This document shows positions 1-20,612 of a stretch of 64,000 bases of DNA, piece after piece. The position numbers and the translations under genes are program-made. Within the stretch, counting starts at the first letter, position 1. Every line of letters starts with the position of its first letter. Where the stretch lies: assembly GCF_055900595.2 (NCBI RefSeq), contig NZ_CM148325.1; one strand, 5' to 3'. Under the pieces are notes generated by a model. That model saw only the letters and a list, made by a program, of their open reading frames with translations, ran no database searches and was not told the origin of the DNA.

Positions 1-1
1 T

Positions 2-670: not shown

Positions 671-672
671 CC

Positions 673-4068: not shown

Positions 4069-4083
4069 CACGCGGAGAATGTT

Positions 4084-5318: not shown

Positions 5319-5665
5319 CCGCTGTTTACAGGGGGATGAACCCGCAGGGAACCGGCACGCTGAGCGACAGCGAACACCTGAAAAACAGCGTGCGGGATAT
5401 CCTGACCACACCGCCAGGCAGCCGGGTGATGCGCCGCGAATACGGCAGCCTGTTACCGGACCTCATCGACGAGCCCATGAACGACACCACGCGTTTACAG
5501 TGCATGAGCGCCACGGTGACTGCGCTGGCGCGCCATGAACCCCGTATAGCACTGCAGAACGTCGATGTGAACTGGCGGGCTGGCGGACGCGCCGTGGTGA
5601 CGTTATCCGGCATCATCACCGAAACCATGCAGAACATCACATTCAGTATCACCCTGAGGGAGTAA
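5315..5665 (+). CDS. Baseplate wedge protein, P2 gpW-like (gp25-like)
   Basis: ATG at 5315 overlapping the V-like stop; 116 aa (P2 gpW 115 aa). Confidence 0.7.
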   Translation: MTAVYRGMNPQGTGTLSDSEHLKNSVRDILTTPPGSRVMRREYGSLLPDLIDEPMNDTTRLQCMSATVTALARHEPRIALQNVDVNWRAGGRAVVTLSGIITETMQNITFSITLRE

Positions 5666-5668
5666 ATC

Positions 5669-6565
5669 ATGCCTTCCGTTGACCTGTCACAGTTACCGGA
5701 ACCGGCCATCATCGCGCAGCCGGATTTTGAGTCCATCCTGGCAGACATTAAAACCATGATGGTGAGCTCCTTCCCGGAAGAATACCGCGCCGCCGTCACC
5801 CGTGCCCTTACTCTGGAATCCGAGCCATTGAACATCATTTCCCAGGCCATGGCCTTTCGTGAAATGCTGCTTCGCCAGCGCATCAATGAAGCCGCCCGCG
5901 CCTGCATGCTCAGCCTCAGCCGGGGCAGTGACCTGGACAATCTGGCCGCCAACAACAACACCCGCCGCCTGGTCATTCATCCGGCCACTGATACCACGGA
6001 AGCAGTGATGGAAAGCGACACATCGCTGCGTCTGCGTGCCCAGTCAGCCTGGGACGGCCTGAGTGTGGCCGGACCGTCCGGCGCGTATGAGTATTTTGCC
6101 CGGAGCGCAAGCGGTCTTGTCCGTGATGCGCGCGCCATCAGCCCGTCACCGGCCACAGTCACCGTCTCCATCCTGTCAGCAGACGGTGACGGCACCGCCG
6201 GTGAGGCGTTACTGAACACGGTGCGCACCGCCCTGAATGCCGAGAACGTGCGCCCGGTTGCCGACCGCCTGACTGTGCAGAGTGCTACCATCGTGAACTG
6301 GGTAATGGAAGCGAAGCTGTATTTTTATCCAGGGCCGGAGTCTGAACCCATGCTTGCGGCCGCTGACGCCGCTTTCCGTGCATGGCTGGCAGACCAGGGC
6401 CGTATCGGTCAGGACGTGGCCCTGTCAGCCATCACTGCAGCGCTGCATGTTCACGGTGTCCAGCGCGTTGAGGTCATAAAACCCACGCAGAACATCACCA
6501 TCAGTGACACTCAGGCAGCCAGATGTACCACATTCAGCATCAGCGAAGGAGGACGCAATGAGTGA
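5669..6565 (+). CDS. Baseplate assembly protein, P2 gpJ-like
   Basis: 298 aa (P2 gpJ about 302 aa), conserved position. Confidence 0.7.
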   Translation: MPSVDLSQLPEPAIIAQPDFESILADIKTMMVSSFPEEYRAAVTRALTLESEPLNIISQAMAFREMLLRQRINEAARACMLSLSRGSDLDNLAANNNTRRLVIHPATDTTEAVMESDTSLRLRAQSAWDGLSVAGPSGAYEYFARSASGLVRDARAISPSPATVTVSILSADGDGTAGEALLNTVRTALNAENVRPVADRLTVQSATIVNWVMEAKLYFYPGPESEPMLAAADAAFRAWLADQGRIGQDVALSAITAALHVHGVQRVEVIKPTQNITISDTQAARCTTFSISEGGRNE

Positions 6566-7121
6566 CAGGAAAAAAACAGACAGCGCACAGCACAGTACAT
6601 CACTGCTTCCACCGTCCGCAGGGCCATTCATGCGCGCCACAGAGGCGACAGGAGTACGCATCAGTACCATACCGGTGGACGCCGACACCCTGTGGTCGCC
6701 GGACCGCTGCCCTGCTCACCTCCTGCCCTACCTTGCATGGGCATGTTCCGTTGACTGCTGGGACCGCAACTGGCCGGAAGAGACCAGGCGACAGGTGATT
6801 CGGGACGCATGGATGATACATCGCCACAAAGGGACCATCAGTGCACTCCGCCGCATCGTTGAACCACTGGGCTACCTCATCCGTGTATCAGAATGGTGGG
6901 AGTTTGACGGCTCGCCCGGGACCTTCACCATTGAGATTGGCACACTTGAAACCGGAGTAAGTGAAGAGCTGCATGAAGAAATGGAGCGTCTGATTGCCGA
7001 TGCGCGCCCCGTCAGCCGCCACCTCGTGGGGCTTAGTATCATCCAGGAAATACACGGTGCCATTTACGACGCTGCCGCAGGTTACGACGGCGACATCATC
7101 ACCATTTACCCGGAAGACTGA
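6558..7121 (+). CDS. Baseplate/tail protein, P2 gpI-like
   Basis: ATG at 6558 overlaps the J-like stop by 8 nt; 187 aa. Confidence 0.65.
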   Translation: MSDRKKTDSAQHSTSLLPPSAGPFMRATEATGVRISTIPVDADTLWSPDRCPAHLLPYLAWACSVDCWDRNWPEETRRQVIRDAWMIHRHKGTISALRRIVEPLGYLIRVSEWWEFDGSPGTFTIEIGTLETGVSEELHEEMERLIADARPVSRHLVGLSIIQEIHGAIYDAAAGYDGDIITIYPED

Positions 7122-7124
7122 ACC

Positions 7125-9359
7125 ATGAGCACGAGAAAATTCAGAACCCTTATCACCGACATCGGGCTGGCAAAGCTGGCCGCAACAACGGCGCCTGGCG
7201 GTAGACCTGTACGCCTTACGCACATGGCTGTAGGGGACGGCAATGGAGAGCTTCGTCAGCCGCAGAAAAACCAGACATCGCTTTACAATGAGGTTTGGCG
7301 CCAGTCTGTCAACCGCGTCTTCACCGACCCGGAGAACCCGAACCGCCTCATCGCCGAACTGGTCATTCCTCCTGAAACCGGCGGATTCTGGGTGCGTGAA
7401 ATTGGTGTGTTTGATGATACAGGTACAATGATTGCAGTAGGAAATACCGCTGAAAGTTACAAGCCCACCAGAGAGGAAGGTTCAGGGCGGGCGCAGATAT
7501 TCCGTGCAGTAATCACCGTCACCTCCGACGCCGTGGTGGAACTGGTCATGGACACAACAACAATTCTGCCGACCACGGACTACATTGATGAGAAAATGGC
7601 GGAACACGCACGTTCCCGTAACCACCCTGACGCGACACTGACAGAAAAAGGATTCACCCAACTGAGCAGCGCCACAAACAGCACCTCTGAAACACTGGCC
7701 GCCACACCGAAGGCCGTCAAGGCTGCATATGACCTTGCAGCCGGTAAAGCACCCGCCAGCCACACCCACCCGTGGAATCAGATAACTGGTGTGCCATCAG
7801 CCTCGCTGACGGCAAAAGGCACCGTACAGCTGAGCAGTGCCACAAACAGTGAGTCAGAGACTGAGGCGGCCACCCCCAAAGCGGTTAAAGCCTTACACGA
7901 TATGGTGACGAGCAAGTATACAGGACAGGATGCAACCACCGGACGCAAAGGCATCGTACAGCTGAGCAGCGCCACAAACAGCAATTCCGAAACACTGGCG
8001 GCCACACCGAAGGCAGTAAGTGATGCACTGAGCATGGCGTTCGTGAAGCCAACAACATCCCTGGGGGAAACAGACCTGAACACTCTGGGGCGTAAGGAAG
8101 ACGCGGGAGATTATTACCAGCAGAGTGACTCAGGTGCGAGAACAGACAGAAACTATCCTGTAGAGAAGGCAGGAGAGTTACGCATCCGTGTTGGTGCATG
8201 GGGATTCTGCCAGCATGAATACACGAGCTGGGATCCGCCACGAAAATTTATCAGGACAGTTACCGGAAACTTTAACGGTAACGGCCCATGGTCAGAGTGG
8301 GTGGAGGTGACAAACACAGATGCAACAACTGGACGCAAAGGCATCGTACAGCTGAGCAGCGATACAAACAGCAATTCCGAAACGCTGGCGGCCACACCAA
8401 GAGCCGTCAAGGCTGCATATGACCTTGCAGCCGGTAAAGCACCCGCCAGCCACACCCACCCGTGGAATCAGATAACAGGTGTGCCATCAGCCTCGCTGAC
8501 GGCAAAAGGCACCGTACAGCTGAGCAGTGCCACAAACAGTGAGTCAGAGACTGAGGCCGCCACCCCCAAAGCGGTTAAAGCCTTACACGATATGCTGACG
8601 AGCAAGTATACAGGACAGGATGCAACCACCGGACGCAAAGGCATCGTACAGCTAAGCAGCGCCACAAACAGCAATTCCGAAACGCTGGCGGCCACACCAA
8701 AAGCTGTTAAAGCTGCGTATGACCTTGCCAACAGCAAAGCCTCGGCAGCCCACACTCATCGCTGGGCTCAGATCACAGACGCCCCTGTTTTTTCGTCTGT
8801 TGCCCGCGTCATCATGGGTAAACAAAGCATAAAAGATATTCTTGATTACTTTGGTTTAGGAGAAGGCTCGACGCTGCCAGTTGGCGTACCCGTTCCGTGG
8901 CCTTCGTCAAGACCACCTGAGGGGTGGTTACAGTGCAACGGTGCCGCATTCACGCGTACAAAATACCCAAAACTGGCGGTGGCCTACCCTGACCTCAGGC
9001 TACCAGATTTGCGCGGGGAATTTATTCGTGGATGGGATGACCTGCGAATGATTGACAGGGGACGCTTATTGTTATCCACACAGGAAGCAACATATATTTG
9101 TACCGCCATACAGGCGTACCACGGCGTAGCGGGAGGTGCAGATATTCAGGCAGGGATTTCATTTGCATCACATGATAACGACATCATAAACATAACCCCT
9201 GATCAACCCAGAACCGGTAACGGCATCCTGTACGGCACAAAACCAGTTGACAGATGGGCAATAGCCAGAGCCGGTAAGCTGGTGAGTAATGAAAAAGACA
9301 GATGGATAGCGATCAGACCGCGCAATATCGCTTTTAATTATATTGTGAGGGCAGTTTAA
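7125..9359 (+). CDS. Tail fibre protein, P2 gpH-like, with internal repeat modules and a collar-like C-terminal domain
   Basis: 744 aa; conserved gpH-type N-terminus (MSTRKFRTLITDIGLAKLAATTAPGG...); repeated GIVQLSSATNS...ATPKAVKA motifs; C-terminus ends NIAFNYIVRAV. Confidence 0.75.
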   Translation: MSTRKFRTLITDIGLAKLAATTAPGGRPVRLTHMAVGDGNGELRQPQKNQTSLYNEVWRQSVNRVFTDPENPNRLIAELVIPPETGGFWVREIGVFDDTGTMIAVGNTAESYKPTREEGSGRAQIFRAVITVTSDAVVELVMDTTTILPTTDYIDEKMAEHARSRNHPDATLTEKGFTQLSSATNSTSETLAATPKAVKAAYDLAAGKAPASHTHPWNQITGVPSASLTAKGTVQLSSATNSESETEAATPKAVKALHDMVTSKYTGQDATTGRKGIVQLSSATNSNSETLAATPKAVSDALSMAFVKPTTSLGETDLNTLGRKEDAGDYYQQSDSGARTDRNYPVEKAGELRIRVGAWGFCQHEYTSWDPPRKFIRTVTGNFNGNGPWSEWVEVTNTDATTGRKGIVQLSSDTNSNSETLAATPRAVKAAYDLAAGKAPASHTHPWNQITGVPSASLTAKGTVQLSSATNSESETEAATPKAVKALHDMLTSKYTGQDATTGRKGIVQLSSATNSNSETLAATPKAVKAAYDLANSKASAAHTHRWAQITDAPVFSSVARVIMGKQSIKDILDYFGLGEGSTLPVGVPVPWPSSRPPEGWLQCNGAAFTRTKYPKLAVAYPDLRLPDLRGEFIRGWDDLRMIDRGRLLLSTQEATYICTAIQAYHGVAGGADIQAGISFASHDNDIINITPDQPRTGNGILYGTKPVDRWAIARAGKLVSNEKDRWIAIRPRNIAFNYIVRAV
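7705..8010. repeat. Direct repeat copy A inside the tail fibre gene (about 300 bp, near-identical to 8395-8700)
   Basis: Read by eye: the stretch gccgtcaaggctgcatatgaccttgcagccggtaaagcacccgccagccacacccacccgtggaatcagataac... recurs almost exactly. Confidence 0.6.
8395..8700. repeat. Direct repeat copy B inside the tail fibre gene
   Basis: Near-identical to 7705-8010; shorter partial copies of the GIVQLSSATNS module occur at about 7925 and 8630. Confidence 0.6.
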
Positions 9360-9970
9360 TGAGTAACACTGCAGTTCTGGATGAAAACGGTATCGCCACT
9401 TTCGCAGGCGATATCACTGTATATCACTATGATGAGGAAACCCGGGAATACACCTCATCCTCTGTGGAGTATCTCGCCCTGGGGGTGGGTACCCCGGCAC
9501 ATTCATGCGCCGATGCCCCGCCAGAGGCAATGCCGGGTTACGTGATTTGCCGGACGTCCACGCTGGACGGGTGGGAGTATGTCCCCGATCATCGTGGAGA
9601 GACGGTATACAGCACAGAGAACGGTAATCCGGTCCAGATTACCCAACCAGGTGACTACCCGGAAGGGACAACGACAAAACAGCCTGCCACACCATGGGAT
9701 ACCTGGAACGGTGAGGCGTGGGTAACCGATACAGAACGGCAGCAAGCCGAAGAGCTGGAGGTTGCCAGACAGCAACGCAAGGAACGGGTGGATCAGGCGA
9801 TGAAGTCCATCGACCTCATCAACCTTAAGTTGCGGGCAGGTCGCAGTCTGACACCAGAAGAAACGGCAAAACTGAATGCCGTGCTGGATTATATCGACGA
9901 GCTGAACGCACTGGATATCAGCACGGAGCCTGAAATAAGCTGGCCGGAAACACCACCAGAAATGGAATGA
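9359..9970 (+). CDS. Tail fibre assembly chaperone (gpG / Tfa-like)
   Basis: 203-aa ORF starting at the tail fibre stop (TAATG overlap); typical Tfa N-terminus MSNTAVLDENGIATFAGDITVYHYDEETREY. Confidence 0.7.
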   Translation: MSNTAVLDENGIATFAGDITVYHYDEETREYTSSSVEYLALGVGTPAHSCADAPPEAMPGYVICRTSTLDGWEYVPDHRGETVYSTENGNPVQITQPGDYPEGTTTKQPATPWDTWNGEAWVTDTERQQAEELEVARQQRKERVDQAMKSIDLINLKLRAGRSLTPEETAKLNAVLDYIDELNALDISTEPEISWPETPPEME

Positions 9971-10040
9971 GCGGGGAAAAGGAACGGGCATTCATAAATA
10001 ATTCATCATGCAGGTGCCGCAAGAATGCGGCACATTACCT

Positions 10041-10529
10041 TCACATCAGATCATTTACGCCGCTTACTGTGGTATTCCAGACCGAACTTAACTTCCCTTT
10101 CATTCCCGAAAGCATATCAGACACCGGCGACGAGGCCATACTCTCCCGCAAATCCTCATCACAGCGTTCCAGACTGACAGTGAACTCAATTTTTTTGGCC
10201 TTACCGTGGCGGTCAAGTTCGCTTCGCGTTGTGCGGACAGCCGTTATCACATACATGCCGTATATCTGCCCCACACCGTCAATCAGCGGCCATGGGCGAC
10301 CAGTGTAAGCCTGCGTCGTTAAAAGGCTGAGGGAAACCTCACCGCCGGTAATTTCGGGATAAAGCACACCGGACAACGTGATCTGGTCGTCACCCGCCCC
10401 GATATACTGCCAGCTGGCCGAACGATTGATGCGTTCATTTTTAACGTGGCGCCAGGTTTTATTATGTTGCAGTTGTTGATGAGGCAGCGTACGCAACTCA
10501 AAAACAAACATGCCGTAAATCATCATCAT
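10041..10529 (-). CDS. Tail protein, P2 gpU-like
   Basis: 162 aa, N-terminus MMMIYGMFVFELRTLPHQQLQHNKTWRH closely resembles P2 gpU (159 aa); on the opposite strand to H/G. Confidence 0.7.
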   Translation of the reverse strand: MMMIYGMFVFELRTLPHQQLQHNKTWRHVKNERINRSASWQYIGAGDDQITLSGVLYPEITGGEVSLSLLTTQAYTGRPWPLIDGVGQIYGMYVITAVRTTRSELDRHGKAKKIEFTVSLERCDEDLRESMASSPVSDMLSGMKGKLSSVWNTTVSGVNDLM

Positions 10530-10540
10530 GCGAGGTACTC

Positions 10541-13500
10541 CTAATCTCTGTCACGGAAACTACCGACTGTCTGGCGGATACGGCGTTCCATTTCCGCACG
10601 GACGGCATCACCCACCATTTTTGCCAGTTCGCGCGGGTTTTGCGTGTGAACATCATGCAGGTGAATATGCAGTTCGCCAGTTAATCCCCATGGTGCCGGC
10701 TCACTCTGGCGCGGTCGGGGCGATGCGGGGGATATGGGCTGGCGCACAGCCTCAACCACCGGACGGGATGTTGCCGCCATCACTGGTGTCATTAGCGGGG
10801 AGAACGTCGGCATGACATCGTGAGTCATAACCGGTTTGATCACCGGCGGAACCACTGGCGTAATATTACCGGACAGTACCGGACGGACGACCGGAGGAAT
10901 AACCGGCACATTATTCACGGACACCACCGGCTTCACGACCGGCGACACGTTCGCCGTGGTGGATATCAGCGGCGAAACACTGACAGGCGGTGGCGCTGGC
11001 AGCGGTGGCAACGAAGGCACACTGACCGACGGCACCTGCGGCAGTCTGACAGGTGGCTCACTGACACTACCCGGTAACAGGGAAGCTGCTCGGTTAAAGC
11101 GTTCCTCCTTCCACTCACCACGAACGGCCAGCGCTTCCGGCAGGTTTTTAAAGATAATATCGCCGGGACCAGCGCGTTTTTTCGCCTGTTTCGCCTCATC
11201 CAGCAGACCACCGGTGTTATCGACGATTTTGTTCAGGCGGCGCATAGTGCCGGTATTCTCCCCCGTCAGGGGTGGTTGCCCCCCTTTGGGTTTTTCGCCG
11301 TCTTTTTTATCCTCGTCCTTTTTCGGCGGATTAATGACGTTAACATCCGCCAGAAGCATGGCAGCTTTCTCGTTCAGCAACTCCTTCTGTTTTAGTTCTT
11401 CCGCCTTTTTCCGGGCGCGCTCAACCGCCGACGGAATCAGCCCGAGTTTTTCCAGCACCCGGGTTAATGAGTCAATCAGCAGCGTAACCGGACCGGTCAC
11501 CAGATTGCTGATAAACTCCCCGACCTTCTGCCCGAACGTACGCCCGGCTTCCGTGCACTTGTCCAGCTCATCCTTTGTTGTGCTTACCGGCGCGAACAAA
11601 TCCACGAACCACTGCCACACACGCCCGATTGTCTGCCCGACATACTCAAACAGCGGTCCCAGTGGTGCCACAGCCTCGCGCAGTGGCGTAAGCCCCTGCC
11701 ACAGGCCGGACAAGAACCCGCCCACGACAGCCTTCAGCTGGTCCCAGTGCCGCCAGATAAGCACTGCCGCACCGACCAGTGTCGCCACCACAAGGCCCAC
11801 CGGACTTAACAGAAAACCCAGCGCCCCGCCAAGTGCGCCCACCGCACCACTCACCATCCCCCACAGTGCGGGCAGACCTGACAGTCTGAGCGCCAGTATT
11901 CCGATACCGCGCCCCAGTGAAATCAGTGCGCCGCCAGGTGAAGTGAACGCAGCCAGCAGACCACCACGCAGCGCGCCAAGTCCCGCCTGCACACCACGAA
12001 GCCGCCCCGCAACTACGCCCAGCAGTGCAGCAAACCGTCCGGCACCGGAGGTGATACCGACAAACAGCACGCGCCAGCCACCGATACCGCCCAGCGGACC
12101 ACCGAGTACGCCGCGCAGCTGCGTCAGTAACGGCAGCGCACGACCGAGGCCGGATGTGCCGGTCAGCAGGGCAAACCCAAGACGCAGTTTTGCCAGCGGC
12201 CCCATCAACACACCAGTGGCAAGTGACAGCGCCCCCATGGCCGCAACCGCAGCCAGCAGTACACCACCGGCAATCAGCAGTTGTTTTGTCAGTTCAGGGT
12301 GCGCCTGAGCCAGCGCGGTGACTTTCGCAATAACCCGGGTGAACGACTGCGTGACAGAACGCAGCGGCCCGTCAACGAGGTCAGCGACACGGATACGCAG
12401 TCCTTCCCATGCGCTGTTCAGTGATTTCAGGTCACCGTCCAGGTTATCAGCCATAACACGGGCAGTGTGATTAAGTTCCCCGGTGGCCAGTTCAATCTCC
12501 TGCGTAAGACGGGGAAGATTATTTTCCCCCGCCGCAGTGACAAGATTCATCAGGGAAACATAGGACTCCTGCCCGGCAATAGCCCTGAAAAAGGAGACCT
12601 GCGCGGCATTACCGTATTTTCGGGTGGCCTGGTACAGCTCATTCAGGATATTTTCCATCCGGCGCATGTTCCCGTAAGCATCCTGCGTCTCCACGCCAAG
12701 CTCTTTCAGTGCCATTGCAGCGGCCTTCGGCGGATCAACCAGACGTGACAGACTGGCACGCAGCGCCGTACCTGCATCACTTCCACGGATCCCCACACTG
12801 CCAAGGACACCCGTCATGGCTGCCGCCTGTTCAAGGGACAGGCCAAGTGAAGCTGCAACCGGACCCGTGTACTTCATGGTTTCACCCAGCGAACGGAGAT
12901 CCGTATTGGTTCGTGTGAAGGTGGCGGCCAGCGTGTCACCCACGCGATCCATCTGGTCAGCGGACAGACCAAACTGTGTGAGGATATTCGAACTGATATC
13001 GGCAGTCTGTCCCAGGTCCATCCCTGCAGCCATTGCCAGATCAAGCACGCCGGGTAGCGCCGCCTGTATGGCCTGTGGTGTGAAGCCGGCCATGGCAAGG
13101 AACGCCTGACCGCTGGCAGCATCACCGGCGGTAAACTGCGTTTCAGAGCCCAGCTTAATGGCCTGTTCGCGCAGCGCCTTAAACTGCGGACTGTTTTTGT
13201 CAATACGGGTCAGCGCCTGGACGCGCGACATCTCCTTACCAAAACTGACCGCCGGTTGCAGGAAACGTCCGGCCGCATAGCCGCCTGCCGCCGCCGTACC
13301 AACCGCCGTAAGTCCGACCGTTTTAAGTTTTCCCGCCGTCTCCTGAGCACGGGAATATTGCTGGCGTGCCTGCGTGACACGTGCCAGCGCCTGCCGTTCG
13401 CGTTCCAGCTGGTCGTTGTATTGCTGTGTTCGCCGTATGGCCTGTTGAATGGTGTTGTCACTGCCGGAAAGCGCAATACCGTGGCGCCGCAGCTCACCAC

Positions 13501-13888
13501 CCAGTTCGCGCATTCGCTGAACTTCACGCGCACGGACCTCATTGAGACGCTCAAGTTTGAGGCTCAAATCGTTCATCAGCTTTTTCTGTTTGTCAGACAG
13601 CACGGTTCCGGCGCGCTGAATTTGCTGAAGTGCGCTTAACTGGCGTTGCGCCCTGACAATGCCGTTTCCGGCCTTGTTTGCAGCCTCGCGGGCGCGATCA
13701 AATGAACGGGCGTGGCGTTCCAGGTTTTTGATCGCACCCTGCGTTCTCTGTATGGAGTCGCCAAGCTGGCCCATCATGCGACGGGCGTTTTCGGTGGGAC
13801 GGGTCAGCCTGTCAACAGCGCTGAAGGCGACCCGTATATCAAGCGTTTTCATGCTCTGCGTTCCCGCTGCGAAGGGCCGCCCGCTCAC
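10541..13888 (-). CDS. Tail tape measure protein, P2 gpT-like
   Basis: 1115-aa ORF; coiled-coil N-terminal region, Gly/Ala-rich hydrophobic centre, Pro/Val-rich C-terminal part; track start is GTG at 13888, an in-frame ATG also lies at 13852. Confidence 0.8.
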   Translation of the reverse strand: MSGRPFAAGTQSMKTLDIRVAFSAVDRLTRPTENARRMMGQLGDSIQRTQGAIKNLERHARSFDRAREAANKAGNGIVRAQRQLSALQQIQRAGTVLSDKQKKLMNDLSLKLERLNEVRAREVQRMRELGGELRRHGIALSGSDNTIQQAIRRTQQYNDQLERERQALARVTQARQQYSRAQETAGKLKTVGLTAVGTAAAGGYAAGRFLQPAVSFGKEMSRVQALTRIDKNSPQFKALREQAIKLGSETQFTAGDAASGQAFLAMAGFTPQAIQAALPGVLDLAMAAGMDLGQTADISSNILTQFGLSADQMDRVGDTLAATFTRTNTDLRSLGETMKYTGPVAASLGLSLEQAAAMTGVLGSVGIRGSDAGTALRASLSRLVDPPKAAAMALKELGVETQDAYGNMRRMENILNELYQATRKYGNAAQVSFFRAIAGQESYVSLMNLVTAAGENNLPRLTQEIELATGELNHTARVMADNLDGDLKSLNSAWEGLRIRVADLVDGPLRSVTQSFTRVIAKVTALAQAHPELTKQLLIAGGVLLAAVAAMGALSLATGVLMGPLAKLRLGFALLTGTSGLGRALPLLTQLRGVLGGPLGGIGGWRVLFVGITSGAGRFAALLGVVAGRLRGVQAGLGALRGGLLAAFTSPGGALISLGRGIGILALRLSGLPALWGMVSGAVGALGGALGFLLSPVGLVVATLVGAAVLIWRHWDQLKAVVGGFLSGLWQGLTPLREAVAPLGPLFEYVGQTIGRVWQWFVDLFAPVSTTKDELDKCTEAGRTFGQKVGEFISNLVTGPVTLLIDSLTRVLEKLGLIPSAVERARKKAEELKQKELLNEKAAMLLADVNVINPPKKDEDKKDGEKPKGGQPPLTGENTGTMRRLNKIVDNTGGLLDEAKQAKKRAGPGDIIFKNLPEALAVRGEWKEERFNRAASLLPGSVSEPPVRLPQVPSVSVPSLPPLPAPPPVSVSPLISTTANVSPVVKPVVSVNNVPVIPPVVRPVLSGNITPVVPPVIKPVMTHDVMPTFSPLMTPVMAATSRPVVEAVRQPISPASPRPRQSEPAPWGLTGELHIHLHDVHTQNPRELAKMVGDAVRAEMERRIRQTVGSFRDRD

Positions 13889-14365
13889 GCCAGGCGACCA
13901 CCTCGCCGGGATCCATCAGGAAGATTTCAGCGGGAGACCAGTTGAAAATAACGGCGATATCCGCCACAAAGTCTTCAATGTGCTCAAAGGGCACGACGGT
14001 TATCAGCCTGCCGTCGCCGCCCCACTCTTCCCGCCAGAGTCCTGACCGGCCAAAAAATTAACCGCCACCCCGCACAGCTGAATAAAATCAGCGGACCCCA
14101 TGCGCTTAAGCAGAACCTCGTCCAGTCGCGGCGAAGTGACGCGCGGGAGTAACTCAAACATCGCGTCCGTTTTCATGTTCAGCACGTCAAGCAGTGACAG
14201 CCCGCGCAGTGAACCGGCCTGCTGTACAGCAGGCGTGATTTCCACATACGTGATTTTTTTGTTACCGAGCACAAGGGGCGTTTTCAGCGTCACGCCGCGC
14301 TCACTGGTCACGTCCGCCGCATCAGCACCGTCAGTAACAGGGGCAACAACCGGATTTTCTTTCAT
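13839..14365 (-). CDS. Putative E+E' fusion made by programmed -1 ribosomal frameshift
   Basis: TTTTTTG on the coding strand at 14051-14057; the -1 frame stays open for about 70 codons and stops at TGA 13839-13841, just inside the tape measure 5' end. Confidence 0.45.
14003..14365 (-). CDS. Tail assembly chaperone, P2 gpE-like (zero-frame product)
   Basis: 120-aa ORF between the tube gene and tape measure gene; contains the slippery heptamer near its 3' end. Confidence 0.6.
   Translation of the reverse strand: MKENPVVAPVTDGADAADVTSERGVTLKTPLVLGNKKITYVEITPAVQQAGSLRGLSLLDVLNMKTDAMFELLPRVTSPRLDEVLLKRMGSADFIQLCGVAVNFLAGQDSGGKSGAATAG
14051..14057 (-). other. Slippery heptamer T_TTT_TTG (candidate -1 frameshift site)
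   Basis: Plus strand reads caaaaaa at 14051-14057; reverse complement is TTTTTTG in the E reading frame (AVNFLAGQ). Confidence 0.45.
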
Positions 14366-14415
14366 GCATAAAACCTCAAATCAGGGGGCGACGCCGCGCG
14401 CCGCCGTGGGAAACA

Positions 14416-14934
14416 TTAACCACCAAGACCAATCGCCGAGCGCACGCGGTCCGGGAAGACGTTTTTGCCGTCCTTGCGTTCGATGTGGTTCAGTAAATCA
14501 ATCTCCAGCACCGGACGGTCGTTAATGCTGAGTTTGTAGTAGGTACTCCTGACCGCATAGGTGTGAGACGTGACCTCACCCTGTTTTGCCTCCCCCGTAT
14601 CAATTTCCGTCACGCGGCCGCGAAGCTCAATTTCATACAGGTCGCTCTGCTCTTCATCGTTGTAGTACTCACCGACAAAGCGCAGCAGCGTACCGTCGAT
14701 CGTGCCGCCGTACTTAAGGAACAGTTCGCGGGTCGGCCCGCCCATGGTGAAACTCGCATCCAGCGCGCCGTCATCCAGACCAAGGTCGATATTCACCGCG
14801 CCGGCCATACCACCACCGCGATAGGCTTCCGTTTTACGGGTCAGTTTGGGGGGGGTGAAGCCGGTCACCCTGCCAATCTGGTTCACCCCGTCAGTAAACA
14901 GCGTGAACACCCTGAGATTTTTTGGTACGGCCAT
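14416..14934 (-). CDS. Tail tube protein, P2 gpFII-like
   Basis: 172 aa, same length as P2 FII; directly downstream of the sheath gene. Confidence 0.75.
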   Translation of the reverse strand: MAVPKNLRVFTLFTDGVNQIGRVTGFTPPKLTRKTEAYRGGGMAGAVNIDLGLDDGALDASFTMGGPTRELFLKYGGTIDGTLLRFVGEYYNDEEQSDLYEIELRGRVTEIDTGEAKQGEVTSHTYAVRSTYYKLSINDRPVLEIDLLNHIERKDGKNVFPDRVRSAIGLGG

Positions 14935-16124
14935 TAAGCACCTCCAAGCGTCGCAAATGCAGGACCAAAGAATTCATCAGTAAACGTCTGGTAAAGTTCC
15001 ATATCCTCAAGCGGCGGAACGGGCGTGTACTTGTAGCGGATACGCACGCGTCCCTGACGAAGTTCCGTGGTGCTGTTATCCACCACGTCATACCAGCACT
15101 CCGCACCAATGAGACGTCCTGACGTAACCAGCGCATCCAGTTTTGCGCGAATTGCGCTTAACACGTCTTTCACATTAGCAGGGGTCAGCGGGGCATCAAT
15201 CGTTTCAAACTGCGCTTCCGCAATGGAATCAGCCAGCACCTGAGCGGTTCGCGTGTACACCTCAAAGAGATACGCCTTCGTTTCCGGCGTACGGTTGCCC
15301 CAGAAGCGGAAACCGTTACGGCAAATGATGGTAGTGATTTCCTTGTTGTTGAGATTGTTGGCATCGCTGTCTTCGGACTGAAGGGACCAGAACACCGGGC
15401 TGGAAATACCCAGCACATTTCTTACCGGCACGTTGGACAGCGATTTATGCCAGCCCTGTTCGTGGTCAATACGTGCACGTAAACCGCAGGCGTACGCCGC
15501 AGCCGGGAAGACCTCATTAGCGCCGGATTTCGGGTTATGGGCGATGAAGTCCGGCCAGACCAGCATAAGTTCGCGCTCGTTAAATCTGGCGCGGTAGCTG
15601 ATTGCATCGGCGGGCTTCTTGCAGTTGTGACAGCCCGCGTAGACAAATGCGCGAAGTTTTTCTGCAATTACACACAGGGATTTTGTGACAGCTTCAGTAT
15701 CCAGTCCGGGAGCTGCGATGATGCGCGGACGGTAACCGATGGCATCATCCTGTTCAGCTATCAGAAGTGCATACATGCCGGTATAGTTTCCGTCATCATC
15801 AGAACCACCGATAACGAGTTTGTCCTGGGTTTGTCCTGAATGCGTCTCTTCCTTAAATTCAGGAACGCGCACCACAATCACCTTCGTGCTCACCTGGTCG
15901 GCGACAGCCTTAAGCGATTTGTAAAGCGTCCCCTTTGTGCCGGCCTTACCCAGCACATCACTGACGCGGGTCAGCAGTGTGGGTTTGTTCAGCGGGAACA
16001 GAGTTTCATCCGCGTCATCTGCCGTAGCCACAATACCAATAACACTGGAATCCACATCATTAATGGCGGTGGCAAGGCCGGTACTTTCCCTTACGCGCGC
16101 ACCATGAAAGCGTGTTTCACTCAT
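14934..16124 (-). CDS. Contractile tail sheath protein, P2 gpFI-like
   Basis: Internal ATG at 16124 (MSETRFHGARV...) gives 396 aa, same length as P2 FI; conserved motifs such as RNGFRFWGNRT. Confidence 0.8.
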   Translation of the reverse strand: MSETRFHGARVRESTGLATAINDVDSSVIGIVATADDADETLFPLNKPTLLTRVSDVLGKAGTKGTLYKSLKAVADQVSTKVIVVRVPEFKEETHSGQTQDKLVIGGSDDDGNYTGMYALLIAEQDDAIGYRPRIIAAPGLDTEAVTKSLCVIAEKLRAFVYAGCHNCKKPADAISYRARFNERELMLVWPDFIAHNPKSGANEVFPAAAYACGLRARIDHEQGWHKSLSNVPVRNVLGISSPVFWSLQSEDSDANNLNNKEITTIICRNGFRFWGNRTPETKAYLFEVYTRTAQVLADSIAEAQFETIDAPLTPANVKDVLSAIRAKLDALVTSGRLIGAECWYDVVDNSTTELRQGRVRIRYKYTPVPPLEDMELYQTFTDEFFGPAFATLGGA

Positions 16125-16200
16125 ATGTTTCACCCTTGTCTGGCTGGTTGATTTTGCGTAATCATTACCCACACACGCGGTAATCTCACCCCTTTGATGT

Positions 16201-16218
16201 TGTCTCCTGACAGCGACA
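16201..16218. promoter_or_regulatory. TGT-N12-ACA dyad, candidate Ogr/Delta-type late activator site between divergent FI and D
   Basis: tgtctcctgacagcgaca lies inside a longer palindrome (ttgttgtc...gacaacaa); about 77 bp from the FI start and about 68 bp from the D start. Confidence 0.4.
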
Positions 16219-16285
16219 ACAAAACAGCCATTCAACGCCGCTGCGGTGCATGAAACCATTACAGAACGCACCAGGAGAGAACACC

Positions 16286-17377
16286 ATGAAAGAGCTGTCA
16301 GTTACCGTTCCGTCACCGGATATCGACATCACCATCAACAACAACACACTGGCAAACCTCACAGAGCGACTCATGACGCTGACCCTGACGGATAACCGGG
16401 CCTTTGAGGCAGACCGCGTCACCCTCACCCTTGACGATACGGACGGGCAGTTACAGTTGCCACCACGTGGCGCACGCCTGAGAGTGATGATTGGCTGGCG
16501 AGGAGAATCACTGGTTAACAAGGGCACCTACGTCGTTGATGAGGTTGCGTGGGAAGGACCTCCAGATAAACTGATCATCACCGCCAGCAGCGCAGATTTT
16601 CGGGAAGAGTTCAACGTGAGGCGGGAGGTATCCTGGCACGACGTGACCGTAAAACAGGTTGTGTCAGCCATCGCTCACCGCTACGGCCTGAAGACACAGA
16701 TAAGCGAAATCCTCATGGATATCGAAATTGACCACGCTGACCAGACCGAAGAGAGCGATATATCCTTCCTGACCCGCATGGCTGAAATGCTGGGTGCGAT
16801 TGCCACCGTAAAAAACGGCAGCCTGTTATTCATTCTGCCGGGTGGCGGAACCGGGCCGGACGGAAGAGCCCTGCCTTCGTTCGCCATTACCCGCAGCAGC
16901 GGCGACAGTCACCGCTTTCGCATTGCTGACCGTGATGCGTATACGGGGGTCCGGGCGCACTGGCTCGATCTGAAGTTCGGGCAAAAGAAAAAAGTGAACG
17001 TGAAGCGACGCAGGGAAGCCGGGAAACAGAAACAGGAGAAGAGCAGCAGCCGGGAGGGTGATTACATGGAAGGCGCGGAAGGGAACGTCTACGTTCTGCG
17101 CAGGACTTACCAGAATGAAGAAACCGCACGACGTGCAGCTGCGGCAAAGTGGCAGGAGTTACAGCGGGGAGCAGCGGCATTCTCCATCACTCTGGCACGG
17201 GGTCGTGCCGACCTGTATCCCGAAATGCACGGCAGGGTAACAGGTTTTAAAAGCGAGGTGGACAATCAGGACTGGATTATTGCCAGGGTGGAGCACATCA
17301 TAGATGAAAGCGGCTTCACCACACAACTGGAGCTGGAAGCGAAAATCCCCGAATGGATAGCAGATTCAGGCGGATAA
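16286..17377 (+). CDS. Tail protein D (late control gene D family), P2 gpD-like
   Basis: ATG at 16286 preceded by aggagag; 363 aa with gpD-type motifs (LTLTDNR.FEAD, FSITLARGRADLYPE). Confidence 0.7.
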   Translation: MKELSVTVPSPDIDITINNNTLANLTERLMTLTLTDNRAFEADRVTLTLDDTDGQLQLPPRGARLRVMIGWRGESLVNKGTYVVDEVAWEGPPDKLIITASSADFREEFNVRREVSWHDVTVKQVVSAIAHRYGLKTQISEILMDIEIDHADQTEESDISFLTRMAEMLGAIATVKNGSLLFILPGGGTGPDGRALPSFAITRSSGDSHRFRIADRDAYTGVRAHWLDLKFGQKKKVNVKRRREAGKQKQEKSSSREGDYMEGAEGNVYVLRRTYQNEETARRAAAAKWQELQRGAAAFSITLARGRADLYPEMHGRVTGFKSEVDNQDWIIARVEHIIDESGFTTQLELEAKIPEWIADSGG

Positions 17378-17420
17378 AATTAAAATGAGCCATCTCCACT
17401 CAGCCAGATAAGGAGAAGCC

Positions 17421-17672
17421 ATGTTCCGTTGTCCCCTATGCGGTGCATCCGCACGTATCCGCACCAGTCGCAATGAAAATGATTCAGGCACAGTTCGCCT
17501 GAAGTACTACCAGTGCAATAACCTCGAATGCGGGATCGGCTTTACCACACTGGAGGGTTTTAACAAATTCACATCAAAACGCGCCCCGTCGCCGCAGGGT
17601 ACAGAGCGGATACCGTGGGAAGATTTTCCGGGATCTCACAGGGGGAATACTCAGATTAATCTTGATATTTAA
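17421..17672 (+). CDS. ogr: Ogr/Delta-family zinc-finger late transcription activator
   Basis: 83 aa; N-terminus MFRCPLCGASARIRTSR...YYQCNNLEC carries the four-Cys Ogr signature; last gene of the P2-type late region. Confidence 0.7.
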   Translation: MFRCPLCGASARIRTSRNENDSGTVRLKYYQCNNLECGIGFTTLEGFNKFTSKRAPSPQGTERIPWEDFPGSHRGNTQINLDI

Positions 17673-17790
17673 GAACAATAATCAGGTTGAGAGGACATCA
17701 TAAGGCAAGTAGATTAACGGCAGATACTTTCCCGCAACCACGGGCAAGTATTTAATTATCCATGATGAAATATGACCTAAATTGTTTTTT

Positions 17791-17816
17791 GCCCGCCGGA
17801 AAGCGGGCATTTTTTT
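17791..17816 (+). terminator. Intrinsic terminator (GC hairpin plus T7), first of a recurring family in the array
   Basis: gcccgccggaaagcgggc then attttttt; T-run only on the plus-strand side. Confidence 0.55.
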
Positions 17817-18030
17817 ATTCTTTTGTGGTTATGGGGTCATCAGGAACCACGTGCAGATTATATTTTTGTTTTTTTGGCGTTCCTCCGGCAGCAACGAGTT
17901 CATCAATAAGACACTGACACGCCTGAACATCCCGGGCATGTCTTAGTTTCACCTTTATTGATTTAACCTTATCCTCACCGGAGGAGAAATGCAGTTCAAT
18001 CTCAATATCGTTTCTTCGGAACAATCTCAT
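17815..18030 (-). CDS. Hypothetical small protein (71 aa) encoded in the 450-bp repeat unit; only this copy is full length
   Basis: MRLFRRNDIEIELHFSSGEDKVKS...; copy at about 19.2 kb differs by two synonymous and one non-synonymous change in the first 7 codons and is truncated to about 35 codons; third copy degenerate. Confidence 0.35.
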   Translation of the reverse strand: MRLFRRNDIEIELHFSSGEDKVKSIKVKLRHARDVQACQCLIDELVAAGGTPKKQKYNLHVVPDDPITTKE

Positions 18031-18254
18031 ACGCCCCCTGAATATATCAGAAATACTAGTATCGAAAAATGAGAAAACAGTTAGACAGGAGAAACATATT
18101 AACACAAATCATTTATACCTATAGATGAAATTATAATTTCATTCATGAATATGATAGATAACTATATTGTGAACAAAATGAAAAATGGCTAAATTAAAAA
18201 TGGGCATGGAGGAATGCCCGGTTATCAATATAATGTGACGTAGATCATTGTTTT

Positions 18255-18281
18255 GCCCGCCGGAGAGCGGGCATTTTTTTT
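18255..18281 (+). terminator. Intrinsic terminator (repeat family)
   Basis: gcccgccggagagcgggc followed by a T8 run. Confidence 0.5.
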
Positions 18282-18465
18282 GCGCCTGCCATCGAGGCGC
18301 CTTCCCTGGCGCACACAAAGCAGCCCTGATTTTCCATGAAAACTTCAGGGTTGAGCTGCGGGCACAAAGTGAGTAGATTAGCTACGGGTACCTCCCCCTG
18401 ACAACAGGAAGGGTGTCCATTATCCATGATATACAAACGAAAAGTCTTGTTTTTTGCCCGCCGAA

Positions 18466-18491
18466 GCGCGGGCATTTTTTTATGCATCAGA
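18466..18491 (+). terminator. Intrinsic terminator (repeat family), immediately upstream of the hok-like locus
   Basis: gcccgccgaagcgcgggc followed by a T7 run. Confidence 0.5.
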
Positions 18492-18607
18492 CAAGATACA
18501 GCCCACCCCAACTGACACCTGAAATATTGCCGCAACAAAAAGAAACAGTTAAATTACGCGCGGGTGCCTTTCGGCTGATGGCCGGAGGGAAAACCTGAAG
18601 GCCGGAT

Positions 18608-18841
18608 GTGGAAAGGCCCCGGAAAACATTTCTGTTTAACCGAGGCCCTAACCGCATTACCTTGACAAGTGAAAGGTTAGCGCCTCTCCGGAAAAGGAGC
18701 AAGTGCTATGTCGCAAAAATCGCTTACGGCCATCACGTTCTGCGTGACGGCAATCCTCATCATCTGGATATTGCACGGTTCGCTGTGCGAAATACGGATG
18801 AGCTTCTGGGGAGCGGAGTTTGCGGCGTTCTTACAATGTAA
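18608..18841 (+). CDS. mok-like overlapping reading frame of the hok-like locus
   Basis: 77-codon frame starting at GTG 100 nt upstream of the hok-like ATG and covering it in another frame, as in hok/mok/sok modules. Confidence 0.4.
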   Translation: MERPRKTFLFNRGPNRITLTSERLAPLRKRSKCYVAKIAYGHHVLRDGNPHHLDIARFAVRNTDELLGSGVCGVLTM

Positions 18842-18848
18842 GAAGTAA
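18708..18848 (+). CDS. Hok-family type I toxin (46 aa), apparently intact
   Basis: ATG at 18708 preceded by aaggag with 8-nt spacing; MSQKSLTAITFCVTAILIIWILHGSLCEIRMSFWGAEFAAFLQCKK has a single TM helix, the Hok SLCEIR motif and the E(F/V)AAF motif; too short for the ORF track. Confidence 0.6.
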   Translation: MSQKSLTAITFCVTAILIIWILHGSLCEIRMSFWGAEFAAFLQCKK

Positions 18849-18947
18849 GGAAACCGCGACGGGGGAGCAATCCCCCGTCAATCGGTTGCCAGGGTAAGGT
18901 CGATAAGGCACCCTATCTCACAGACATGAACAACAAACCCGCAGCAT

Positions 18948-18979
18948 AAAAACTGCGGGTTTTCTTTTTGGTGTCCTCA
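18948..18979 (+). terminator. Intrinsic terminator downstream of the hok-like gene
   Basis: cccgcag cataaaaa ctgcggg followed by tttctttttgg. Confidence 0.5.
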
Positions 18980-20612
18980 CCGACTTGAAACAGTGATCAG
19001 ACTATAAGACAAAGCCCGCAATGTTGCGGGCTTACTCTACCTCTCGAAAATGTGGTCACTGCGTGGACATACGCTGATACAAATCCTTTATATCAATAAA
19101 TTAAATCTTTGTTTTTTTCATCAACAATGATTTAACCTTATCCTCACCGGAGGAGAAATGCAGTTCAATCTCAATATCGTTTCTGTGGAACAGCCTCATA
19201 AGACAACCTCCTGAATTCATCAGAAACACAGTCAACTGAAAACCAGAAAGCAGACAAACAGTGGACACACATTAATACAAATCATTTATACCTATAGATG
19301 AAATTGCAGTTTCATCTATAACATGACAGGTAACAATATTGTGAAAAAACTCAAAACTCGTTAGATTAAAGACGGACAGAGCAATGCTACTTTATCAATA
19401 ACATGTAACCTGTACTTCCTTATTTTGCCCGCCGAAGCACGGGCATTTTTTTTGCGCCTGCCATCGAGGCGCCTTCCCTGGCGCACACAAAGCAGCCCTG
19501 ATTTTCCATGAAAACTTCAGGGTTGAGCCAAAAGCACAAAGACAGTAGATTAACCACGGGTGCCTTCCACCTGACAACAGGAAGGGTGTCCAGTATCAAT
19601 GACAGACAACTCACATTGCTGTTTTGCCCGCCGGAAAGCGGGCATTTTTTTATTCTTTTGTGGTTATTGGGTCATCAGGAACAACATGCAGATTATGCTT
19701 TGATTTTTTTGGTGTTATTACAGCAGCAACGAGTTTATTAATAAGACACTGACATGCCTGAACATCCCTGACATATCATAATTTCACTTTATTTTTTTAG
19801 CTTGTCCTTTCTGGAGCAGAAATATCTCAACATCGTTTCTGTGGAACAACCTCATTTGCCCCTGAATGTATCATAAATATCAGCATCGGAAAACCAACAG
19901 CAATACAGAAGAAACATGTTAATGCAAATCACTTATACCTATAGATGAAATTACAGTTTTGTTCATAAATATGATAAGTAACTATATTGTGAATAAAATG
20001 AAAACTAGCTAAATTAAACGTGGGCATGGTGGAATGCCTCGTAATCAATAATACATGATCCGTACTTCCTTGTTTTGCCCGCCGGAAAGCGGGCATTTTT
20101 TTGGCGGTTACCATCGCCTCACCTTCCTGGTTCACATGAAGCAACCCTGATTTTCCATGAAAACTTCAGGGTTGAGACAAAAGCACAAAGACAGTAGATT
20201 AACCACGGGTACCTTCCACCTGACAACAGGAAGGCTGTCCAGTATCAATGACAGACAACTCACATTGCTGTTTTGCCCGCCGGAAAGCGGGCTTTTTTTG
20301 GCAGTTATCATAGCCGCACCTTCCTGGCACATATGAAGCAACCCTGATTTTCCATGAAAACTTCAGGGTTGAGACAAAAGCACAAAAACAGTAGATTAAC
20401 CACGGGTGCCTGCCACCTGACAACAGGAAGGGGTGTCCATTATCCATGATATACAAACGAAAAGTCTTGTCTTTTGCCCGCCAAAGCGCGGGCATTTTTT
20501 TATGCATCAGACAAGATACAGCCCACCCCAACTAACACCTGAAATATTGCCGCAACAAAAAGAAACGGGTGCCTTTCGGCTGATGGCCGGAGGGAAAACC
20601 TGAAGACCGGAT

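What the first reader, a model, noticed from the sequence alone, without database searches (positions are those of the whole stretch)
9971..16285. Tail sheath-tube-E/E'-tape measure-U block lies on the opposite strand to the rest of the P2-type late region
All other late genes read left to right on the plus strand in canonical P2 order (N-M-L-X-holin-endolysin-spanins-R-S-V-W-J-I-H-G, then D-ogr). The six genes that normally sit between G and D in the same orientation (FI, FII, E, E', T, U) are on the minus strand: FI starts at 16124 facing D, and U ends at 10041 facing G. In P2 the FETUD genes form one operon from the F promoter, so this arrangement separates D from that operon and creates a convergent G/U junction and a divergent FI/D junction. 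I saw no obvious inverted repeats at the two junctions. This is either a roughly 6.2-kb segmental inversion, a lineage-specific layout, or a misassembly.
Basis: partly seen in the sequence, partly recalled or inferred. Interest (0 to 1): 0.65.

Follow-up and report, generated by a model that had tools for sequence, protein, structure and literature searches.

The report
Inherited reversed tail-gene block in P2-type prophage
The reversed tail sheath-to-U gene block is real, but it is the normal inherited gene order of a large, common group of P2-family phages of enteric bacteria (about one in five complete E. coli genomes carries it), not a recent rearrangement or an assembly error.

Summary
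Observation confirmed. U, T, E/E', FII and FI lie on the minus strand (10041-16124), between H-G and D-ogr on the plus strand.

- **Not a misassembly.** Both junctions are contiguous at >=99% identity in 27 complete E. coli genomes.
- **Common.** The divergent FI/D junction occurs in 1139 of 5426 complete E. coli genomes and in all 80 related IMG/VR loci.
- **Present in classified phages.** It is found in four ICTV genera (Xuanwuvirus/P88, Novemvirus, Reginaelenavirus, Reipivirus) and in Serratia KSP20.
- **Compatible with function.** P88 forms plaques and has a contractile tail.
- **Derived once.** Seven other Peduoviridae genera keep the P2 order, and D, FI and J trees each give one inverted clade.
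- **No switch.** There are no junction inverted repeats and no invertase here.

Inferred mechanism: the 161-bp FI/D spacer carries one exact dyad, GTTGT-N12-ACAAC (16199-16220). It sits 85.5 nt from the FI start codon, against 82.5 for the P2 pF site. -10-like elements lie about 48-50 nt to each side. This copies the geometry of this phage type's own P/O spacer and of P2 pP/pO. One Ogr site probably drives both FI-to-U and D-ogr.

The finding is ordinary. Interest is low.

The parts
7125..9970 (+). H (tail fibre, 7125-9359) and G (fibre assembly, 9359-9970). These are the last genes of the long rightward late transcription unit.
9971..10040 (.). Convergent G/U junction, 70 bp. It holds a perfect 8-bp G+C-rich hairpin, GTGCCGCA-agaa-TGCGGCAC, at 10013-10034, a candidate two-way terminator. 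There is no invertase gene and no invertible fibre segment here.
   Evidence: z about -2.2 to -2.5 on both strands. The consensus terminator scan did not flag it, because there is no clean T run. Relatives without an invertase have strong hairpin terminators at the same junction.
10041..10529 (-). U tail protein
   Evidence: phrog_76; 80% aa identity to P88 U
10541..13852 (-). T, tape measure protein. About 1103 aa from the ATG at 13852; the ORF list extends it to a GTG at 13888.
13839..14365 (-). E (14003-14365) and E+E', made by a -1 frameshift at TTTTTTG (14057-14051). The E' frame ends at 13839.
   Evidence: RefSeq 'GpE family' ORF in the near-identical prophage
14416..14934 (-). FII tail tube
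14934..16124 (-). FI tail sheath, 396 aa from the ATG at 16124
16125..16285 (.). Divergent FI/D spacer, 161 bp, proposed to be a two-way late promoter region.
16199..16220 (.). Exact dyad GTTGTctcctgacagcgACAAC, containing TGT-N12-ACA, centred at 16209.5. Proposed Ogr binding site shared by the leftward F promoter and a rightward D promoter.
   Evidence: It is the only extended dyad in window 1-18000 and the only exact match in the 64-kb window. ACAAC is invariant in 13 divergent relatives. The near-identical prophage has exactly two exact copies, at P/O and at FI/D.
16160..16167 (-). -10-like element for the F promoter (GGTAATGATT on the minus strand), ending 47.5-49.5 nt from the dyad centre. 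Predicted transcription start near 16153-16155 (inferred).
   Evidence: conserved GAT(G/T)AT-type block in the alignment
16251..16259 (+). Extended -10-like element for D (TGaAACCAT), ending 49.5 nt from the dyad centre. Predicted start near 16265-16267 (inferred). AGGAG ribosome-binding site at 16273-16277.
   Evidence: the TG and the A/T columns are invariant in 13 relatives; the spacing equals that of TGcCATCAT on the O side of the P/O spacer
16286..17377 (+). D (late control D / VgrG-Pvc8-family tail protein), 363 aa
17421..17672 (+). ogr/delta-type zinc-finger late activator (Cys4, Cys7, Cys32, Cys37)
17790..17819 (+). Intrinsic terminator ending the D-ogr unit (GCCCGCCggaaaGCGGGCA followed by T7)

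Best explanation
This is the normal, vertically inherited gene order of a large clade of enterobacterial P2-family (Peduoviridae) phages. An ancestor of the clade inverted the FI-FII-E-E'-T-U module once, between G and D. The F promoter travelled with the module and now abuts D. The late region is therefore proposed to be read as three units. (1) A long rightward unit runs from the O promoter, outside the window, through G and stops at the G/U junction. (2) A leftward FI-to-U unit stops at the same junction. (3) A rightward D-ogr unit stops at the terminator at 17790-17819. Units 2 and 3 are proposed to start from two back-to-back promoters that share a single dyad-symmetric Ogr binding site (16199-16220) placed about 56 nt upstream of each start, as the divergent P and O promoters do in P2. 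Shown here: the layout, how widespread and old it is, the conservation of the motifs, and the matching geometry. Inferred: Ogr binding, the two start sites, and termination at the junction hairpin.
For: Layout and gene identities.

Independent assemblies: 27 complete E. coli genomes carry both junctions at >=99% identity.

Lineage trait:
- All 80 IMG/VR loci with D >=72% identical have FI(-)/D(+).
- P88 and P88_4B11, phiT5282H, 3LV2017, KSP20 and ST16-OXA48phi5.4 all share it.
- 1139 of 5426 complete E. coli genomes have the divergent junction.
- Phage D proteins split into 48 records at 60-80% identity (every one checked is inverted) and the rest at <=52% (every one checked is canonical).

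Polarity and single origin: P2, Fels-2, Gegavirus, 186, Shewanella M16-3, Mannheimia PHL101 and Burkholderia phi52237 are all co-directional. NJ trees of D, FI and J each place all inverted phages in one clade.

Viability: P88 plaques, has a burst size of about 65 and a 137-nm contractile tail (PMC5285337). P88 and phiSM are active phages (PMC6456863).

Promoter model:
- The dyad centre lies 83-85 nt from the FI ATG in six divergent lineages. The equivalent distances are 82.5 for P2 pF and 186 pJ (read) and 81.5 in Fels-2 (counted from the sequence).
- ACAAC and both -10-like blocks are invariant in an otherwise poorly conserved spacer.
- The exact 22-nt dyad occurs only at P/O and FI/D in the 35-kb near-identical prophage. 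About 0.03 exact matches are expected by chance in 35 kb (own calculation).
- All four arms have -10-like elements ending about 48-50 nt from the dyad centre in three genera.
- The P2 record annotates one activator site for pP and pO, with starts 111 bp apart.
- The TGT-N12-ACA consensus, and a single dyad shared by PP'/PO' in Smp131, are reported in PMC3931495.
Against: No transcript data exist for any member of the clade, so the start sites, Ogr dependence of D and termination at the junction are not demonstrated. In P88-type relatives the left half-site reads TCT rather than TGT, so the dyad is imperfect in most members. With one mismatch allowed, the pattern occurs at chance frequency in the window (3 found, 2.1 expected); only the exact match and its position carry weight. 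If ogr were transcribed only from an Ogr-dependent promoter it could not get started, so it needs a second promoter. Only a -10-like TAAAAT pair at 17375-17386 with no good -35 is visible, and the consensus scan found nothing there. The junction hairpin lacks a clean U tract. Whether this particular prophage is inducible was not tested.
Confidence: 0.9

Rival explanations
1. A recent 6.2-kb inversion that happened in this prophage or strain and may have crippled tail production.
For: None beyond the contrast with P2 itself.
Against: The same orientation is found in every relative, down to 65% FI and 68% D identity and across four phage genera. The clade is monophyletic. All genes are intact, including the frameshift site. 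P88, with the same layout, makes working tails.
Confidence: 0.01
2. Misassembly of the source genome.
For: None.
Against: Twenty-seven complete genomes from different laboratories hold the 7.7-kb stretch with both junctions at >=99% identity, one as a single 100% piece. Deposited phage genomes show the same junctions.
Confidence: 0.01
3. A reversible, recombinase-driven invertible segment (Gin/Cin/Hin-type switch) caught in one orientation.
For: P88-type relatives carry a DNA invertase and an invertible fibre segment directly next to U.
Against: The window has no invertase gene between G and U. There are no inverted repeats at the two junctions. Not one of more than 85 related loci is in the other orientation. 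In Fels-2 the 3' end of the invertase gene, not its crossover-site end, faces FI.
Confidence: 0.01
4. The clade's layout arose when a foreign sheath-tube-tape-measure cassette was inserted backwards, replacing the original genes, rather than by inversion in place.
For: Block genes are a little more diverged from P2 (FII 40%, E 36%, T 32%) than the flanking J (55%) or I (56%). No breakpoint scars survive.
Against: FI (inside the block) and D and J (outside it) give the same deep split and similar internal groupings. The F promoter dyad keeps the P2 and 186 distance to the FI ATG. FI (46%) and U (50%) are as close to P2 as D is (46%).
Confidence: 0.1
5. D-ogr is driven by an ordinary activator-independent or otherwise regulated promoter. 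The dyad serves only the F promoter, and its distance to D is incidental.
For: The half-site nearer FI is degenerate (TCT) in many relatives. The -10-like AACCAT/GACCAT is a weak match to TATAAT. There is no experimental evidence.
Against: The TG and -10-like columns on the D side are invariant across 13 divergent spacers. They sit at the same distance from the dyad centre as the O-side element of the phage's own P/O region. The spacer has almost no length variation between the two -10 blocks.
Confidence: 0.3

Closest known systems
Escherichia phage P88 and other Xuanwuvirus (Peduoviridae)
   Same: Identical order and strands: V-W-J-I-H-G (+), U-T-E'-E-FII-FI (-), D-ogr (+). The FI/D spacer architecture is the same, with ACAACAAAA and both -10-like blocks. 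S and V overlap, so there is no separate V promoter gap.
   Different: P88 has an invertible fibre segment and a DNA invertase between G and U; the window has only 70 bp there. Protein identity is only 54-85%. DNA similarity detectable by megablast covers only FI-FII, at 78%. The left half-site is TCT in P88. T is 935 aa in P88 and about 1103 aa here.
Enterobacter phage phiT5282H (Novemvirus), Klebsiella phages 3LV2017 (Reginaelenavirus) and ST16-OXA48phi5.4 (Reipivirus), Serratia phage KSP20
   Same: The same inverted block. As in the window, there is no invertase at the convergent junction, which carries a hairpin terminator next to the U stop codon.
   Different: More distant: D 68-74% and FI 65-72% identical. 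They come from different hosts.
Phage P2 F operon (FI-FII-E-E'-T-U-D from pF) and phage 186 J operon
   Same: The same genes in the same internal order, the same E/E' frameshift, and the activator site about 82-86 nt upstream of the FI ATG.
   Different: In P2 and 186 the block is co-directional with H-G and D, U overlaps D, and D is the last gene of the operon. Here D lies on the other strand from U and needs its own promoter and ribosome-binding site.
Phage P2 divergent pP/pO late promoter pair
   Same: One annotated activator site sits midway between two divergent starts 111 bp apart. The FI/D spacer here predicts starts about 112 bp apart around one dyad, with -10-like elements placed as in this phage type's own P/O spacer.
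   Different: It serves tail genes (FI..U and D-ogr) rather than packaging and head genes. Function here is inferred from sequence only.
Gin/Cin/Hin invertible tail-fibre segments (Mu G, P1 C, Fels-2, P88)
   Same: DNA in the tail region lies in an orientation opposite to its neighbours.
   Different: Those are about 1-3 kb reversible switches with crossover sites and an adjacent invertase. This is a fixed 6.1-kb arrangement with neither.

Membership tests
Peduoviridae (P2-like) late morphogenesis region | P2-type set and order of head, lysis, baseplate, fibre and tail genes, with D and an ogr/delta-type zinc-finger activator | tested here: met
   PHROG hits for U, T, E, FII, FI, D, ogr, H and G. 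RefSeq annotation of the 98% identical prophage lists N, M, L, X, lysis genes, R, S, V, W, J, I, H, G and the rest. Nearest phage records are all Peduoviridae.
Inverted-FETU clade of Peduoviridae (Xuanwuvirus, Novemvirus, Reginaelenavirus, Reipivirus) | FI-FII-E-E'-T-U on the strand opposite to H-G and D-ogr, with FI and D divergent across a spacer of about 160-220 bp | tested here: met
   groups inside the inverted clade in D, FI and J trees
Genus Xuanwuvirus specifically | Genome-wide nucleotide identity at the ICTV genus level (about 70% over the full genome; stated from my own knowledge of ICTV practice) | tested here: inconclusive
   Only 21% of an 8.8-kb query aligns to P88 by megablast, at 78%. 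The 1.1-kb junction aligns at 73.7% with blastn. The window holds only part of the prophage, so whole-genome identity was not computed.
P2-type F operon | D co-transcribed with FI-U as the last gene of one operon from pF | tested here: not met
   D is on the opposite strand from U and lies upstream of FI. Compare the P2 annotation.
Ogr/B/delta-dependent late promoter | Partial dyad TGT-N12-ACA upstream of the promoter (about -55) and a poor -35 | tested here: met
   Exact TGT-N12-ACA lies within GTTGT-N12-ACAAC at 16199-16220. Its position relative to the FI ATG matches P2 pF and 186 pJ. The consensus is cited from PMC3931495. The position relative to the transcription start is inferred, not measured.
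Ogr/B/delta-dependent late promoter | Transcription requires the zinc-finger activator | not testable with these tools
   An Ogr homologue with four Cys residues is encoded at 17421-17672. No expression data are available.
Site-specific invertible DNA segment (Gin/Cin/Hin) | Inverted-repeat crossover sites at both ends | tested here: not met
Site-specific invertible DNA segment (Gin/Cin/Hin) | Adjacent serine invertase gene, and both orientations present in populations | tested here: not met
   No invertase homologue in the window next to U. Only one orientation is seen in all related loci.

The most novel reading that the evidence does not exclude
The old inversion did more than flip six genes. 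It placed the dyad-symmetric Ogr site of the F promoter next to D and so created a second two-way late promoter. In this clade the whole late programme would then run from just two Ogr sites (P/O and F/D) serving four transcription units, with no V promoter. D and ogr would sit in their own Ogr-activated unit, giving a positive feedback loop and dosing of D independent of sheath and tube. No paper found in the searchable library describes this wiring.
Probability: 0.55. Interest if true: 0.35.

Novelty: new member of a known kind. Interest (0 to 1): 0.2.

Why it matters
The main value is for annotation. Prophage callers and readers who use P2 as the template should not flag this layout as a rearrangement, a defect or an assembly error. 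It is the standard order for a clade found in about a fifth of complete E. coli genomes and in Klebsiella, Enterobacter, Citrobacter and Serratia phages. If the shared-site promoter model holds, the clade is a natural example of a symmetric activator site acquiring a second promoter after an inversion. That would be of modest interest for understanding how phage late operons are rewired and for engineering P2-type tails or tailocins.

Tried and rejected
- **False memory lead.** I recalled that Fels-2/SopEphi carry this inversion. The Fels-2 record is fully co-directional, and the SopEphi paper is not held.
- **Literature.** Searches for an explicit description of the inverted block found none. 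Absence from this library does not prove it was never described.
- **Junction inverted repeats.** None above background.
- **Dyad with one mismatch across the window.** Chance level, 3 found against 2.1 expected, so only the exact match and its location are used.
- **Consensus sigma-70 scan of the spacer.** It found nothing, as expected for activator-dependent promoters. This is not counted as evidence either way.
- **Rfam on 1-24000.** No family reached threshold.
- **Tandem repeats in T.** None.
- **Half-site co-variation.** In P88 both the P/O and F/D sites read TCT, while both read TGT in the window type and in 3LV2017. I considered this as evidence for a shared binding protein. I do not rely on it, because L008, whose Ogr is 98% identical to the window's, has TCT at F/D.
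- **Invertase-mediated origin of the inversion.** Considered and dropped. The invertase is absent from more than half of the clade, and its gene orientation in Fels-2 does not put a crossover site at the breakpoint.
- **GTDB genome scan for host range.** Not run; I judged it not worth the cost.


Full report
**1. What is there**

- On the plus strand: H (7125-9359), G (9359-9970), D (16286-17377) and an ogr-type zinc-finger gene (17421-17672).
- On the minus strand between them: U (10041-10529), the tape measure T (10541-13852/13888), E (14003-14365), the tube FII (14416-14934) and the sheath FI (14934-16124).

The E/E' programmed -1 frameshift site TTTTTTG is present at 14057-14051 on the minus strand, with the E' frame open down to 13839. 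No gene in the block looks damaged. G and U converge across 70 bp. FI and D diverge across 161 bp. RefSeq annotation of a 98% identical prophage in E. coli strain 135 gives the same genes, strands and start codons. It also shows the rest of the late region in P2 order on the plus strand. The window is an E. coli chromosome, with the prophage lying next to serS.

**2. Not an artefact and not private to this strain**

A 7.7-kb query spanning both junctions (9300-17000) is found at >=99% identity and >=80% coverage in 27 complete E. coli genomes. In strain GF4 it is one 100% piece. That excludes a misassembly.

A 1.1-kb query made of the 5' ends of FI and D plus the spacer can match as one place only if the two genes are adjacent and divergent. 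It does so in 1139 of 5426 complete E. coli genomes. It also does so in deposited phages of Escherichia, Citrobacter, Enterobacter, Klebsiella and Serratia.

Annotated records show the same order and strands in:
- P88 and P88_4B11 (Xuanwuvirus)
- phiT5282H (Novemvirus)
- 3LV2017 (Reginaelenavirus)
- KSP20
- ST16-OXA48phi5.4 (Reipivirus)

All 80 IMG/VR loci retrieved with the D protein (72-100% identity) have FI on the strand opposite to D.

P88 forms plaques, has a burst size of about 65 and a 137-nm tail that contracts (PMC5285337). P88 and Citrobacter phiSM are described as active temperate phages (PMC6456863). The layout is therefore compatible with making tails.

**3. Polarity and age**

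Seven other Peduoviridae genera have FI-FII-E-T-U-D co-directional with H-G, with U abutting or overlapping D:
- P2
- Fels-2
- Klebsiella Gegavirus
- 186
- Shewanella M16-3
- Mannheimia PHL101
- Burkholderia phi52237

Among phage records, D identity to the window falls into two groups. Forty-eight records lie at 60-80%, and the rest at 52% or below. Every sampled member of the first group is inverted, and every sampled member of the second is canonical.

Neighbour-joining trees of D and J (outside the block) and FI (inside it) each put all inverted phages in one clade on a long branch. The simplest reading is a single old inversion, inherited since. Replacement by a foreign cassette inserted backwards cannot be strictly excluded. 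It is less likely, because genes inside and outside the block tell the same history.

No inverted repeats mark the junctions. The DNA invertase that sits beside U in P88-type phages is missing from the window and from more than half of the related loci. This is not a flip-flop switch.

**4. How D is probably expressed**

In P2, D is the last gene of the F operon, and late promoters depend on Ogr, which recognises a partial dyad TGT-N12-ACA (PMC3931495). Here D has been cut off from that operon.

*The site.* The FI/D spacer contains an exact extended dyad, GTTGT-N12-ACAAC, at 16199-16220. It is the only one in the phage part of the window and the only exact match in all 64 kb.

*Position relative to FI.* Its centre lies 85.5 nt from the FI start codon. 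In six divergent lineages of the clade a TGT-N12-ACA sits 83-85 nt from that codon. The corresponding distance is 82.5 for P2 pF and 186 pJ (coordinates) and 81.5 in Fels-2 (sequence). The F promoter evidently moved with the block.

*Conservation.* I aligned 13 spacers that otherwise share little sequence. ACAAC is invariant and the other half-site is GTT(G/C)T. Two further blocks are conserved: a GAT(G/T)AT-like element on the FI side and a TGn(A/G)A(C/T)nnT element on the D side. There is almost no length variation between them.

*Geometry.* Measured outward from the dyad centre, these -10-like elements end about 48-50 nt away on both sides. This predicts transcription starts about 56 nt from the centre in each direction, roughly 112 bp apart.

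*Comparison with P/O.* The near-identical prophage of strain 135 has exactly two exact copies of the 22-nt dyad in 35 kb. One is in the divergent terminase/scaffold (P/O) spacer and one is here. P88 and 3LV2017 show the same pairing. The P/O arms carry -10-like elements at the same distances. The P2 record annotates a single activator site for pP and pO, with starts 111 bp apart.

I therefore propose that one Ogr site in the FI/D spacer activates both the leftward FI-to-U unit and a rightward D-ogr unit. The D-ogr unit would end at the strong terminator at 17790-17819. S and V overlap and no other intergenic dyad exists. N through G is therefore probably one unit from the O promoter, ending at the G/U junction. 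There a perfect 8-bp hairpin (10013-10034) is a candidate two-way terminator. Relatives that lack the invertase have clear hairpin terminators at the same junction.

All of this is inference from sequence and conservation. I put the shared-site model at about 0.55-0.65.

**5. Caveats**

- Most clade members have TCT instead of TGT in one half-site.
- With one mismatch allowed, the motif is at chance frequency.
- The junction hairpin has no clean U run, and the terminator scan did not flag it.
- ogr needs some Ogr-independent expression. Only a -10-like TAAAAT pair at 17375-17386 is visible.
- Inducibility of this particular prophage is unknown.

**6. Comparison with what is known, and verdict**

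The element is a member of the P2 family and of its inverted-block clade. It fails the defining feature of the P2 F operon (D co-transcribed with U) and all tested features of a site-specific invertible segment. Genus assignment to Xuanwuvirus is open, because DNA similarity to P88 is patchy.

I found no paper in the searchable library that describes the inverted block or its promoter consequences. However, the arrangement is plain in many annotated public genomes. The finding is therefore ordinary: a correct observation of a common lineage trait. Interest is 0.2.

The most novel reading still open is that the inversion created a second two-way Ogr-dependent promoter, and with it a late programme run from two sites. 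I give that a probability of about 0.55 and an interest of about 0.35 if true.

Noticed in passing
window 17787-20880: A nest of degenerate direct repeats (nine families, 66-98% identity, spacings of about 1.17 and 1.8-2.0 kb) lies between the ogr terminator and serS. Each unit repeats a terminator-like hairpin (GCCCGCCGGAAAGCGGGCA followed by a T run). One unit holds a hok/gef-type ORF (18708-18848), with a decayed second copy near 20.7 kb. It looks like stacked remnants of P2-type prophage right ends at one attachment site. No Rfam family was detected.
   Followed up: partly
window 10541-13852: The tape measure gene encodes about 1103 aa, against 935 aa in P88 (137-nm tail) and 815 aa in P2. 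This predicts a noticeably longer tail. In the 98% identical prophage of strain 135 the same gene is broken into pseudogene pieces.
   Followed up: no
window 4084-5318: S (4084-4740) and V (4737-5318) overlap, so there is no room for a P2-type V promoter. The only other TGT-N12-ACA in the phage part of the window lies inside R, at 3755.
   Followed up: partly
window 9971-10040; L001 9934-12082: P88-type relatives carry an invertible tail-fibre segment and a DNA invertase at the convergent G/U junction. The module sits next to U in 23 related loci and is absent from about 32, including the window. It is an accessory insertion at that junction.
   Followed up: partly
L017, L022, L029, L030, L038, L044, L051, L063, L071, L072, L078 and others: In many P88-like IMG/VR loci ogr lies 2-5 kb downstream of D instead of 43 bp. 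This suggests a cargo insertion site between D and ogr.
   Followed up: no
L037 5722-9100: A G homologue lies on the plus strand, and a J-I-H gene set lies on the opposite strand, downstream of D-ogr in one IMG/VR contig. This may be two adjacent P2-type elements or a rearranged contig.
   Followed up: no
window 17375-17386: Two overlapping-in-phase TAAAAT hexamers straddle the D stop codon, 35-45 nt upstream of the ogr ATG, with no good -35. They may be ogr's own weak promoter, analogous to the ogr promoter annotated in P2.
   Followed up: no
window 9967-10308 and 10836-12308 (plus strand): Long ORFs lie antisense to U (113 aa, no PHROG hit) and to T (490 aa, TTG start). They are most likely shadow ORFs of the G+C-rich coding strand.
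   Followed up: partly
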